From Octopus sinensis (lineage: Eukaryota): DNA of 64,000 bases. The notes beneath the pieces were generated by a model. The model had not been told where the DNA came from, made no database searches, and saw only the letters and a program-made list of their open reading frames with translations. This document shows, in pieces, positions 6,301 to 34,820 of the stretch. How positions within the stretch are numbered: the stretch's first letter is position 1; each line of letters begins with the position of its first letter. The translations under genes were made by a program, and so were the position numbers. The stretch spans positions 17,112,001 to 17,176,000 of the forward strand of contig NC_042999.1 in assembly GCF_006345805.1 (NCBI RefSeq), read 5' to 3'.

Positions 6301-6744
6301 TCAAAGTGACATTTCCATGTTACAAATAGTCTCATCCCAGGTAGATATTCCACCAGCTGGTTAACGGTGCCACGCCACACCCTTTATATACAATACTGCT
6401 AGTTACAGGAGCGAACACCTAGAATCCTCCAGGAAGCACAAAACAAGATCGTCAGACTGACTCAGTTTCGGGTTGGTTGGCCTATCCTCAGACGGATGTC
6501 ACAAGGCCGCGATTTATGTATGTAAATCACGCAAACACACACGCTTACAGACTCACTCACAAATACAAACATGCTGGCAAACTTTGCGATACATACGTTA
6601 TTGCAGCTACGTATAGAATCACACTTACATATTCAATAATGTACATATATGCTTTCATAAATAGTCATAAAATATAGATATATTTCATATATATATATAT
6701 ATATACTCACACACACACACACACACACACAACCGCACATACTC

Positions 6745-24070: not shown

Positions 24071-24325
24071 AAACCTGTAATATAATATGCGACAATTATT
24101 CTGTTGCCATAATAAACTCTGGGTTCTGATATCTCGGCGGAAAGCCGCTCCAGCATCTCGATAATTGAAGAGATGCCGGAGCAGATTTCCGACCCGACAT
24201 CCGAAACTCGGAGTCCTATTATGGCAACCGAATATTGTCACATATTATATTACAGATAAATTCCTCTATTTAGATAATATCGTGGTCTTTTCATTCTTTT
24301 GTTGTTTTATCATTTCTATCAATAT
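24071..24325 (+). mobile_element. Penelope-like fold-back element with hammerhead motif; same family as 26270-26452
   Basis: Imperfect palindrome 24075-24255 with apex near 24165; TTGAAGA-GATG...CATCC-GAAAC-TCGGA-GTC at about 24161-24222; unique tail; (TA)n flanks. Confidence 0.75.
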
Positions 24326-24349
24326 ATACATACATATATATATTATATA

Positions 24350-24424
<75 letters not shown>

Positions 24425-24519
24425 ATATGTATAAGGGTGGAAAGGAACACACGAGTTGATATATATGAAAAAACAAGTCAAAAATAGAAAATGCTAAGAT
24501 GATTTTATGGTGAATCTTT

Positions 24520-24557
24520 CAGTACCGGTTTCGGTCATTTTCAGACCTTTTCAACTG
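24520..24557 (-). ncRNA. Minimal type I hammerhead motif with U3-A8 core (sense copy)
   Basis: CAG-TTGAAAA-GGTC-TGAAAAT-GACC-GAAAC-CG-GTA-CTG. Confidence 0.75.
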
Positions 24558-25037
24558 TAACGATTAAATAATTAAATTTAGAAAGATTTAGAAAAATTAG
24601 AAGAAAGGTTTTTTTAAAGGAATACTTTCATAGTAGTGTTCAGATATAGGTGGCATTCTGCCTTTCTCTGACTCCCTTGTTTGCACTTGTGTATTCGAGG
24701 TCGTTGTGAGTTCTTGAGGGGGTGGGAGTGGGAAAATCTGGGCTGGTCAGTGGCGACCGGCAGTCGCTGCGTAGGCGTTATACTTAAAGACATTAGTGAC
24801 AAGGTTAAGGGGTAGAGGGTGGAGAAGTAGAAGAAGAAGAAGAAGATGACGGTGCCGATGATGATGACGATGAAGAAGAAGAAGGAGGAGAAGGAGAAGA
24901 TGACGATGATGATGGTGGTGATGACGATGACGACGATGTTGATGATAATGATGATGAAGAAGAAGGAGAGGAAGAAGAAGAAAAAAAACAGAGAAGGGAG
25001 AATATGAATGGGTGAAGATATAGCTGTGATGGGGCGA

Positions 25038-25853
25038 TTAGTAATGGATTCTATGGAATGTAATATTTGTGTGTGTATATATATTTCTTTTATTCTTAAG
25101 TTGAGGTATATTATTGTTTGTCGTAGACCCGTTAAGAAGTGGCCTGTATTTTATAATAAAGAGATTTTCTTTACTTATTCGTTGTCTCGAGGTTGTATCG
25201 TCCCTAAATTGGTAGAGGGGGAAAATTCTGAAGTTTGGTGTTTTTTTATTGGCGCAAGTATCTATGTGTTGGCTAAAAGCTATTTTTCTGTTTTGGGGAA
25301 TTTTTATCTAGGATCTGTGCAGGGCCATTCGTTTACGCAAACCATTTTTTGTTTGGCCTATGTACTGCTCTTGACACCCGGAGCAGGTTAGTGAGTATAT
25401 TAGGTTCTCCAAAGCACATGTGAAGTTGCTTTTCACTGTAAACCGTTGTCCCTGTTTGAAGGAGAACTCAGAACCCTCGATTAGATAGTCGCATATCCCG
25501 CAATTGGGTCTTCCACATTTTTTTTACTGTCGGCTTCTGTGTTGAAGAGTGAATTCGGGCTTGTGTTAGGAGACTTTTCATGGATCTAGGCTGTCTTTTG
25601 CTTTTTATGATCGTGTGTGTTTGGAGGATTGTGTTCATTCTGTGGTCTTTTTTTATGAGGGGTATCTGGTGGAGGATGGTGCCGAAGGCTTCGTTATTTA
25701 GAGGGTTGTGTGTGGAGATGTATGGTAAGGCTTTTGGTTGTAAGTTTTTCTTTGATTTGGGATGTCTCAGTTCCTTGATGTTAAGTTGAAGGGCACGTTG
25801 AATGCACTTGTCAATAAGTGAAGGTGGATAGTTCCTGGTGATAAGGGTATCTT
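25038..25853 (-). pseudogene. PLE RT C-terminal linker plus GIY-YIG endonuclease (frameshift and premature stop)
   Basis: L..RNYPPSLI...LPYISTHNP, then after a frameshift in the T-run at about 25520: CGRPNCGIC...FTCALENLIYSLTCSGCQEQYIGQT...RKRMALHRS*...H...KENLFIIKYRPLLN. The Cys-rich linker is the Neptune-clade signature. Confidence 0.92.
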
Positions 25854-26091
25854 TAATGTCTTTAAGTATAACGCCTACGCAGCGATTGCCGGTCGCCACT
25901 GACCAGCCCAGATTTTCCCACTCCCACCCCCTCAAGAACTCACAACGACCTCGAATACACAAGTGCAAACAAGGGAGTCAGAGAAAGGCAGAATGCCACC
26001 TATATCTGAACACTACTATGAAAGTATTCCTTTAAAAAAACCTTTCTTCTAATTTTTCTAAATTTTTCTAAATTTAATTATTTAATCGTTA

Positions 26092-26129
26092 CAGTTGAAA
26101 AGGTCTCAAAATGACCGAAACCGGTACTG
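26092..26129 (+). ncRNA. Minimal type I hammerhead motif with U3-A8 core (inverted-arm copy)
   Basis: CAG-TTGAAAA-GGTC-TCAAAAT-GACC-GAAAC-CG-GTA-CTG. Confidence 0.75.
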
Positions 26130-26190
26130 AACGATTCACTATAAAATCATCTTAGCATTTTCTATTTTTGACTTGTTTTTTCATATATAT

Positions 26191-26269
<79 letters not shown>

Positions 26270-26271
<2 letters not shown>

Positions 26272-26452
26272 GGCCAGATAACCGAAGAGATGGTGTTGTG
26301 GATTTCCATCTCGGCATCCGAAACTCAGAGTTTTATCTTGGCTATTGAATAATTGTCACATATTATTTTACAGATAAATTTCCTCTATTTACATATATTG
26401 AGGTCTCTTTCTTTCTTTTGTTATCTTACCGTTTTTACCAATATAAAAAAAA
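26270..26452 (+). mobile_element. PLE 3' fragment beginning at a hammerhead motif
   Basis: GCCAGATAA-CCGAAGA-GATG...CATCC-GAAAC-TCAGA-GTT-TTATCTTGGC (26273-26342); downstream sequence homologous to 24225-24325. Confidence 0.75.
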
Positions 26453-34713: not shown

Positions 34714-34766
34714 GAGCTTCTACAGGACTAGAACTGTTTCATTCAAGAGAAATCTTCAGGAAGCTC
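34714..34766 (-). ncRNA. Type I hammerhead ribozyme motif (inverted copy)
   Basis: GAGCTTC-CTGAAGA-TTTC-TCTT-GAAT-GAAAC-AG-TTCTAGTC-CT-GTA-GAAGCTC. Confidence 0.85.
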
Positions 34767-34771
34767 AGGAT

Positions 34772-34820
34772 GCTTCCTGAAGATTTCTCTTGAATGAAAC
34801 AGTTCTAGTCCTGTAGAAGC
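34772..34820 (+). ncRNA. Type I hammerhead ribozyme motif
   Basis: GCTTC-CTGAAGA-TTTC-TCTT-GAAT-GAAAC-AG-TTCTAGTC-CT-GTA-GAAGC. Canonical core, 4-bp stem III, U.U at the base of stem II. Confidence 0.85.

What the first reader, a model, noticed from the sequence alone, without database searches (positions are those of the whole stretch)
24429..26190. Neptune-type PLE linking the fold-back architecture to a GIY-YIG ORF, with a U3-A8 hammerhead
This copy shows the whole architecture: inverted arm, truncated ORF with a CxxxxCxxC linker and IY...YIGQT endonuclease, 3' pseudo-LTR with hammerhead, 30-nt tail and TA target. The core TTGAAAA replaces the C3-G8 pair with U3-A8, a compensatory change that argues for selection on catalysis. 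Near-identical arms suggest a fairly young insertion. The ORF track misses the nuclease because of a frameshift and a stop.
Basis: partly seen in the sequence, partly recalled or inferred. Interest (0 to 1): 0.75.

Follow-up and report, generated by a model that had tools for sequence, protein, structure and literature searches.

The report
Dead two-armed Neptune retroelement with hammerhead
This is a broken, young copy of a very common Penelope-type jumping gene whose end repeat carries a hammerhead-shaped, likely self-cutting RNA with an already published base-pair swap; longer copies of the family also keep a slippery signal that likely makes ribosomes shift frame to build the copying enzyme.

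Summary
This is a 5'-truncated, dead copy of a young, high-copy Penelope-like element, Neptune type by its motifs. It has 337-nt inverted arms (5 mismatches), a CX4CX2C linker, a C-terminal GIY-YIG nuclease broken by a frameshift and a stop, a 30-nt tail on one arm, and (TA)n at both ends. U3-A8 is fixed in the family (1793 of 1804 pattern matches) but is already published for Penelope-like elements. Copies in this genome decay with mismatches. Selection on the pair shows only across families: 18 of 19 motifs in distant relatives keep a Watson-Crick 3-8 pair, and U3-A8 arose about three times. Two extras come from longer copies. (1) 19 of 19 scorable two-armed insertions carry the tail on exactly one arm, long or short, which points to two separate priming events. 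(2) The family has two ORFs joined by an in-phase U_UUU_UUA site in a -1 overlap, shared by 8 of 12 two-ORF relatives, so a programmed frameshift is likely. This scan noted both extras before on other DNA. Cleavage and frameshifting are untested. Verdict: a new member of a known kind.

The parts
24429..24458 (-). 30-nt tail. In tandem full-length copies it is the sequence just downstream of the pseudo-LTR, in the 5' leader of ORF1; its far end is the inferred second reverse-transcription start site.
   Evidence: (L071 6624-6653, ORF1 ATG at 6683)
24459..24795 (-). 3' end (pseudo-LTR part) of the long arm, the part mirrored by the inverted arm; ends in an internal (TA)4 run, the inferred first start site.
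24512..24565 (-). Minimal type I hammerhead motif: core UUGAAAA (U3 24554, A8 24549), stem II GGUC/GACC, GAAA, palindromic ACCGGU; predicted cut between 24523 and 24522.
   Evidence: cleavage untested
24796..25112 (-). 3' untranslated region with a variable low-complexity (TTC/TCA)n tract.
25113..25853 (-). 5'-truncated remnant of ORF2: end of the RT thumb, linker and C-terminal GIY-YIG nuclease with CCHH motif; broken by +1 A (25518-25525), TAG (25310-25308) and a 1-nt deletion near 25114.
25491..25517 (-). CX4CX2C linker zinc-finger-like motif (CGRPNCGIC), followed by 24 residues to the next Cys, as in Neptune.
25350..25400 (-). GIY-YIG core IYSLTCSGCQEQYIGQT.
25854..26190 (+). Inverted short arm: a second, 337-nt 5'-truncated copy without the tail, joined head-to-head with about 1 nt of microhomology; carries the second hammerhead motif (core 26095-26101).
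24350..24428 (.). (TA)n target, left side.
26191..26228 (.). (TA)n target, right side, then (AG)n.

Best explanation
This is a dead, 5'-truncated, two-armed insertion of a young, high-copy Penelope-like retroelement with Neptune-type motifs, likely made when the family's GIY-YIG nuclease nicked both strands of a (TA)n repeat and its reverse transcriptase primed two cDNAs, one at each of two start sites 30 nt apart, which were then joined head-to-head. Shown: the anatomy, the family, the lesions, the one-tail-per-insertion rule and the fixed U3-A8 core. Inferred: two nicks and two priming events, likely helped by the short AT runs that end both start sites pairing with the (TA)n target. The hammerhead is predicted to work only as a dimer in tandem transcripts of longer copies. 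In this copy the two motifs lie on opposite strands and are predicted to be locked in the arm-to-arm duplex, so this copy likely neither cleaves nor transposes on its own. Longer copies likely make the RT-nuclease as an ORF1 fusion by -1 ribosomal frameshifting at U_UUU_UUA; that region is missing from this copy.
For: Family: 2116 first-look candidates, 40 scored at 97-100% identity. Long open RT+EN frames occur in other copies, with RVT_1 above cut-off. This copy differs from the majority of 29 copies by 7 substitutions and 2 one-base indels in 754 nt. Tail rule: of 21 head-to-head pairs in 20 fetched regions, 18 scored tail plus no tail and one more (L286) has a diverged tail on inspection. 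Two were unscorable (tandem continuation), and none had two tails. By my reading of the maps the tail is on the longer arm in 7, the shorter in 6, and arms are near-equal in 6. In the 6 short-arm cases neither arm can be a fold-back copy of the other. Two start sites that bound the tail, with both strands nicked and extended, were shown in vitro for PAc (PMC11167929). Hammerhead: the dimer fold gives a double hammerhead with an intermolecular ACCGGU helix, -25.5 against -9.1 kcal/mol for a monomer. Across 123 related loci, 18 of 19 distinct sense motifs keep a Watson-Crick 3-8 pair, with 0 hits in 3 shuffles. Stem II also swaps G-C for A-U between subfamilies. Frameshift: T6A in 28 of 28 matched copies out of 30 loci; in phase in all 4 copies with an intact ORF1; the first Met of ORF2 is at codon 68, past the conserved N-terminal motif. 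The same in-phase heptamer is in 8 of 12 relatives with a long -1 upstream ORF.
Against: No cleavage, frameshift or integration was tested. Minimal PLE hammerheads cleave weakly in vitro (PMC4209133), and hammerhead mutants did not affect PAc insertion in vitro, so the motif's role is open. Six of 19 pairs have near-equal arms, more than independent truncation would suggest and compatible with self-priming in some cases. The priming microhomology idea differs from PAc, whose start site is not homologous to the cut DNA. No stable structure follows the slippery site in this family (best -3.0 kcal/mol over 120 nt). Two of the 12 relatives lack a pattern-matching heptamer, two others have a different one, and 4 of the 12 come from one metagenome sample. 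The clade rests on motifs, not on a tree with labelled references.
Confidence: 0.88

Rival explanations
1. The inverted arm is made by fold-back self-priming of one cDNA (or on an antisense template), and the asymmetric tail comes from nuclease resolution at the internal TA run.
For: Proposed for palindromic PLE junctions (PMC3846280, passages); the tail is attributed to EN-mediated resolution in PMC8557442. Six of 19 pairs have near-equal arms. In this copy the tail is on the long arm, as fold-back predicts.
Against: In 6 of 19 pairs the tail is on the shorter arm and the longer arm lacks it, so neither arm can be a copy of the other. The junction here has only about 1 nt of microhomology.
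Confidence: 0.2
2. The U3-A8 motif is a non-catalytic relic or a protein-binding hairpin; its fixation only reflects the single source element.
For: Within the genome the core decays with mismatches like any other site. Hammerhead mutants did not affect PAc insertion in vitro. No Rfam hammerhead among the matches shown.
Against: The core is unchanged in three subfamilies whose pLTRs differ (4 of 39 variable columns in the motif against 85 of 246 outside; partly biased because the older subfamily was found through the motif). The 3-8 pair is Watson-Crick in 18 of 19 distant motifs and U3-A8 appears on three separate branches. U3-A8 ribozymes are reported active in vitro (PMC3088659, passage).
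Confidence: 0.15
3. ORF2 is made not by a frameshift but by reinitiation at a non-AUG codon (the AUA that overlaps the ORF1 stop), or by splicing.
For: The ORF1 stop overlaps an AUA in the ORF2 frame, about where gene callers place a Met in several homologues (by eye). No downstream stimulator was found.
Against: The exact heptamer U_UUU_UUA recurs in phase inside the -1 overlap of relatives at 28-46% protein identity. In six other loci T6A lies out of phase and there is no long upstream ORF.
Confidence: 0.2
4. The family belongs to Nematis or to an unnamed linker-bearing clade rather than Neptune.
For: Both clades have the CX2-5CxxC linker, and Neptune was paraphyletic in the published tree (PMC8557442).
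Against: There are 24 residues between CxxC and the Cys before GIY, close to the four Neptune-type rows and unlike the short spacer of the Nematis rows in Fig. S2. The RT3-RT4 block resembles XtropNep4 and DreriNep1 most (comparison by eye).
Confidence: 0.1

Closest known systems
Neptune clade of endonuclease-bearing Penelope-like elements (Craig et al. 2021, PMC8557442; passages of the main text, supplement parts 2 and 54 read; figures not seen)
   Same: RT followed by C-terminal GIY-YIG, CX2-5CxxC linker with a long spacer, CCHH motif, DKG motif, hammerhead in the pLTR, inverted 5'-truncated arm, 30-40 nt tail at one end, microsatellite targets.
   Different: The abstract describes canonical EN+ PLEs as single-ORF; this family has a 411-aa ORF1 overlapping ORF2 in the -1 frame. 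The Fig. 1 legend mentions an ORF1 'separated by a frameshift with a pseudoknot' without naming the clade in text; no stimulator was found here.
Minimal type I hammerheads of metazoan PLEs, including the U3-A8 variant of Schistosoma Cercyon elements (Cervera and De la Pena 2014, PMC4209133; parts 1-2 of 4 read)
   Same: U3-A8 core (about 1,300 hits reported there), palindromic helix III region, predicted to work as a dimer, pairs of motifs on opposite strands.
   Different: Here stem II is 4 bp, and the motifs are very uniform (1793 of 1804 matches U3-A8), not heterogeneous; another host and PLE family.
PAc (Poseidon of Anolis carolinensis; Frangieh et al. 2024, PMC11167929; parts 1-2 of 4 read)
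   Same: Tail bounded by two internal start sites, AT-rich targets, hammerhead in the pLTR.
   Different: PAc is Poseidon clade with a single ORF, a C3-G8 core and start sites inside the ORF that are not homologous to the target. Here the tail lies in the 5' leader and both ends fall in short AT runs that match (TA)n.
Natural U3-A8 hammerheads (Perreault et al. 2011, PMC3088659; passages read)
   Same: The same covariation, called active in vitro.
   Different: Those examples were not described as PLE motifs in the passages read.

Membership tests
EN+ Penelope-like elements | RT with a GIY-YIG nuclease in one frame | tested here: met
   Family copy L021: RVT_1 34 bits (cut-off 29.6); GIY-YIG 21.3 bits, just under the cut-off of 22.6; relative P0007 passes with 28.7. 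The window fragment is 70 of 71 identical to L021.
EN+ Penelope-like elements | Pseudo-LTRs from tandem or inverted partial copies; optional 30-40 nt tail | tested here: met
EN+ Penelope-like elements | Hammerhead motif in the pLTR | tested here: met
   Pattern and fold; not seen by Rfam among the matches shown.
EN+ Penelope-like elements | Single ORF (as worded in the abstract of PMC8557442) | tested here: not met
   ORF1 of 410-412 aa plus ORF2 in the -1 frame. The same paper's Fig. 1 legend allows an optional ORF1, and a two-ORF Neptune is reported in PMC12602865 (passages), so this does not exclude membership.
Neptune | C-terminal EN with CX2-5CxxC linker and CCHH motif | tested here: met
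   CGRPNCGIC; C..C..H..H present.
Neptune | Long spacer between CxxC and GIY, unlike Nematis (my reading of Fig. S2) | tested here: met
   24 residues; compared by eye with the Fig. S2 text.
Neptune | RT groups with named Neptune elements in a phylogeny | not tested
   The only tree has unlabelled rows; clade placement rests on motifs.
Penelope/Poseidon | No Cys linker between RT and EN | tested here: not met
   Linker present.
Naiad | N-terminal EN, DKA motif, no canonical hammerhead | tested here: not met
   EN is C-terminal, the motif is DKG, and a hammerhead is present.
Hydra | No CCHH, DKT motif, CxCX5C linker | tested here: not met
   CCHH, DKG and CX4CX2C present (definition).
Minimal type I hammerhead ribozyme | Core boxes, 3-8 Watson-Crick pair, NUH triplet, stems I and II, palindromic helix III | tested here: met
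Minimal type I hammerhead ribozyme | Self-cleavage | not testable with these tools
   No raw RNA reads were available.
-1 programmed ribosomal frameshift | In-phase X_XXY_YYZ heptamer inside a -1 overlap, conserved | tested here: met
-1 programmed ribosomal frameshift | Downstream stimulatory structure | tested here: not met
   Nested fold only, in this family: -0.2 to -3.0 kcal/mol; pseudoknots were not modelled.
-1 programmed ribosomal frameshift | Transframe protein | not testable with these tools
   Needs a reporter or proteomics.

The most novel reading that the evidence does not exclude
Neptune-type elements of this lineage are two-gene retroelements whose RT-nuclease is made by a structure-free -1 frameshift at U_UUU_UUA, with the ORF1 stop about ten codons downstream standing in for a pseudoknot. 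They integrate through a two-enzyme reaction in which each arm is primed at its own fixed start site, always one with and one without the tail. Their hammerhead 3-8 pair takes all four Watson-Crick forms in nature.
Probability: 0.5. Interest if true: 0.62.

Novelty: new member of a known kind. Interest (0 to 1): 0.36.

Why it matters
The copy itself is ordinary. The family is a useful test system: about 1,800 near-identical end repeats, long open RT-nuclease frames, and a clean insertion footprint. The one-tail-per-insertion rule constrains how Penelope-like elements integrate, which is still open. It favours two priming events over simple fold-back and links the genome record to the two start sites seen in vitro. 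A conserved slippery site without a downstream structure would add translational control to a group described as single-ORF. Covariation at 3-8 across families suggests that the weakly active hammerheads of these elements are still under selection.

Tried and rejected
Rfam: no hammerhead among the 150 of 189 matches shown; those were microsatellite and palindrome matches, nearly all to miRNA models. PDB sequence search with the family ORF2: 0 hits. Pfam on ORF1: nothing near a cut-off. Expression: no RNA holder was listed on record as RNA. Contigs of four runs cover the pLTR and list no variant at the core positions, but they cannot show cleavage or expression. A C3-G8 sister subfamily in this genome: suggested by L068 and L069 and rejected. 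The older subfamily is U3-A8 in 96 of the first 100 of 640 matches, and only 2 C3-G8 copies were found against 55 single transitions. The shifted CTGATGA cores in L065 and L067 look like chance decay picked by the search pattern. Target-site duplication: unreadable in (TA)n; the flanking similarity at 24160-24326 and 26277-26445 is another repeat family at 79% identity, not a duplication. Folds used a wrong position; the corrected fold is. The scan's look-up by sequence returned nothing. Literature on a frameshift in Neptune elements: five searches (listings seen) and a supplement search showed no paper describing it beyond the Fig. 1 legend of PMC8557442. Arkhipova 2006, Arkhipova et al. 2017, Gladyshev and Arkhipova 2007 and Przybilski and Hammann 2007 were not held and may bear on it. 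I recall, without a source here, that the 2017 paper describes a frameshift with a pseudoknot in Athena elements. The figures of PMC8557442 and the supplements of PMC4209133 were not seen.

Full report
Observation. The element lies on the minus strand. Two arms, 24459-24795 and 25854-26190, are 337 nt long and differ at 5 positions. The long arm runs from 25853 down to 24429 and ends in a 30-nt tail; the short arm points the other way and has no tail. Both ends run into (TA)n. Translation gives the end of an RT thumb, the linker CGRPNCGIC, the core IYSLTCSGCQEQYIGQT and the later nuclease residues, split over frames. Against the majority of 29 other copies, the 754-nt coding part has 7 substitutions, one extra A and one missing base. 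The stop at 25310 is private (29 of 29 others have C). The A-run is 8 long here and 7 long in 27 of 29 matches in other loci; a homopolymer error in the assembly is not excluded. Both arms carry TTGAAAA GGTC..GACC GAAA CCGGTA.

Family. The coding part finds 2116 first-look candidates in the 2.7-Gb genome G000; the 40 scored are 97-100% identical. Other copies hold open frames of up to 784 aa with RT, linker and nuclease. RVT_1 passes Pfam's cut-off, GIY-YIG falls just short in this family and passes in a relative, and 2158 proteins match at E <= 1e-20. About 0.9% divergence from the family majority agrees with the arm difference, so the insertion is young in relative terms; no clock is available. 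Earlier notes of the scan call the host octopus-like; I did not test this.

Clade. By the features in Craig et al. 2021 (PMC8557442; passages; supplement parts 2 and 54), the C-terminal nuclease, DKG, CCHH and CX4CX2C exclude Naiad, Hydra and Penelope/Poseidon. The 24-residue spacer after CxxC resembles the Neptune rows of Fig. S2 and not the short Nematis rows (by eye). No tree with labelled references was run, and Neptune is paraphyletic in that paper. 'Neptune-type' is therefore a motif call.

Hammerhead. In the two young subfamilies the pattern matches 1798 times with T3; 5 of these lack A8. It matches 6 times with C3, all C3-A8. That is 1793 of 1804, with A or G at position 3 not searched; reversed controls gave 0. 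An older subfamily is U3-A8 in 96 of the first 100 of 640 matches. Its variants are 19 C3-A8, 2 C3-G8, 36 U3-G8 and 10 U3-C/U8, which is what neutral decay of inserted copies gives. Selection on the pair therefore cannot be read from copies in this genome.

It can be read across families. In 123 related loci from metagenome and genome collections, a descriptor that left positions 3 and 8 free found 19 distinct sense motifs: 14 C-G, 2 U-A, 1 A-U, 1 G-C and 1 U-C. There were 3 antisense hits (2 C-G, 1 A-A) and none in 3 block shuffles. In an RT tree of 21 rows the family sits in a 100/100 clade with three C3-G8 elements, and the two other U-A motifs lie on separate branches, so U3-A8 arose about three times (midpoint root, no clade test). 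Stem II changes G-C to A-U between subfamilies.

The motif cannot close helix III alone. A dimer folds as a double hammerhead at -25.5 kcal/mol against -9.1 for a monomer, and a transcript of this whole copy buries the motif in the arm-to-arm duplex. U3-A8 is published for PLE hammerheads of Schistosoma (PMC4209133, parts 1-2 of 4) and as a natural covariation called active in vitro (PMC3088659, passages).

Insertion mechanism. In tandem copies the tail is the leader sequence between the pLTR and the ORF1 start. For PAc the tail lies between two reverse-transcription start sites, and both target strands are nicked and extended (PMC11167929, parts 1-2 of 4). I fetched 20 regions with head-to-head motif pairs, picked by eye from the first 100 listed matches. 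They hold 21 pairs: 18 scored tail plus no tail, one (L286) has a diverged tail on inspection, two continue as tandems on one side, and none has two tails. If each arm took the tail independently half of the time, 19 of 19 would have a chance of about 2 in a million. The tail is on the longer arm in 7, the shorter in 6, and the arms are near-equal in 6 (my reading of the maps). Where the shorter arm has the tail, fold-back copying of one cDNA is impossible, so two priming events are the best general reading. The near-equal class leaves room for self-priming (PMC3846280, passages). Both start sites end in short AT runs that match the target; pairing there is inference. The junction of this copy has about 1 nt of microhomology. 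That the tail is often on one end only is in print.

Two ORFs in longer copies. ORF1 (411 aa, no Pfam match near a cut-off) overlaps ORF2 by 61 nt in the -1 frame. The overlap holds T TTT TTA in phase, 30 nt before the ORF1 stop. The T6 run is present in 28 of 28 matched copies out of 30 loci and is in phase in the 4 with an intact ORF1. The first Met of ORF2 is codon 68, past the conserved N-terminal motif. Among 39 related loci that reach the ORF2 start, 7 run off the contig. Of the other 32, 12 have an upstream -1 ORF of 90 codons or more: 8 carry the same in-phase heptamer, 2 carry another, and 2 none. Four of the 12 share one sample. The stop follows after 30 nt in the family and in L158, L162, L163, L202 and L210, and after 33-60 nt in five others. 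No stable nested structure follows the site in this family. A -1 frameshift is likely; reinitiation at an AUA that overlaps the ORF1 stop is the rival. This region is absent from the window copy.

Prior state. I found the frameshift signal before reading the scan's notes on it, which list it in at least 4 genomes. A note on another repeat of this genome had mentioned arms ending at two fixed sites and prompted the test. Notes report 3-8 covariation in this genome. These notes are unchecked leads, not support. In print, the Fig. 1 legend of PMC8557442 mentions an optional ORF1 with a frameshift and pseudoknot without naming the clade in text, and a killifish Neptune has two non-overlapping ORFs (PMC12602865, passages). 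Five searches (listings seen) showed no paper on frameshifting in Neptune elements, but key papers were not held. Also consulted: bioRxiv 10.64898/2026.07.22.740005 (part 1 of 5), PMC5408684, PMC6431247, PMC3884650 and PMC5718144 (passages or keyword counts only).

Verdict. It is a new member of a known kind; interest 0.36, carried mostly by the family-level tail rule, the cross-family covariation and the likely frameshift.

Noticed in passing
window 24075-24330: Fold-back of another repeat family (about 185 nt, -102 kcal/mol over 275 nt) with a decayed hammerhead-like motif (TTGAAGA, long stem II, GAAACTCGGAGTC) ending next to (TA)n; probably the two-armed end of another Penelope-like family.
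   Followed up: partly
window 26277-26445: Second, single-armed copy of the same family, 79% identical, core decayed to CCGAAGA; the Neptune copy sits between the two in a cluster of (TA)n insertions.
   Followed up: partly
window 34724-34812: Near-perfect 89-nt palindrome containing CTGAAGA and GAAA boxes; perhaps the centre of another two-armed insertion.
   Followed up: no
L071 6683-7918 and 7855 onward; L155, L156, L158, L161, L162, L165, L198, L202: ORF1/ORF2 overlap in the -1 frame with in-phase U_UUU_UUA, the ORF1 stop often 30 nt later, no stable downstream structure in this family.
   Followed up: yes
L191 1969 and L212 117: Hammerhead-like motifs with A3-U8 and G3-C8 cores beside PLE RT genes; L191 is sister to a U3-A8 element (100/100). 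Single cases, unverified.
   Followed up: partly
L038-L048, L054, L056-L060, L062-L064: A C3-G8 hammerhead repeat (CTGACGA GAGGCG..CCTC GAAACCGGTC) in tandem units about 360 nt apart and head-to-head pairs, without similarity to this ORF2; retrozyme-like.
   Followed up: no
older subfamily: U3-G8 (36) is about twice as common as C3-A8 (19), and two pairs of neighbouring copies share it; a small wobble-pair lineage may have transposed.
   Followed up: no
L235-L277; P0029, P0075, P0078: Penelope-like RT genes in records labelled as bacterial MAGs or symbionts; probably animal DNA binned with them.
   Followed up: no
L284, L287, L288, L293, L296: Six of 19 two-armed insertions have arms of nearly equal length, more than independent truncation would suggest; unexplained.
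   Followed up: partly
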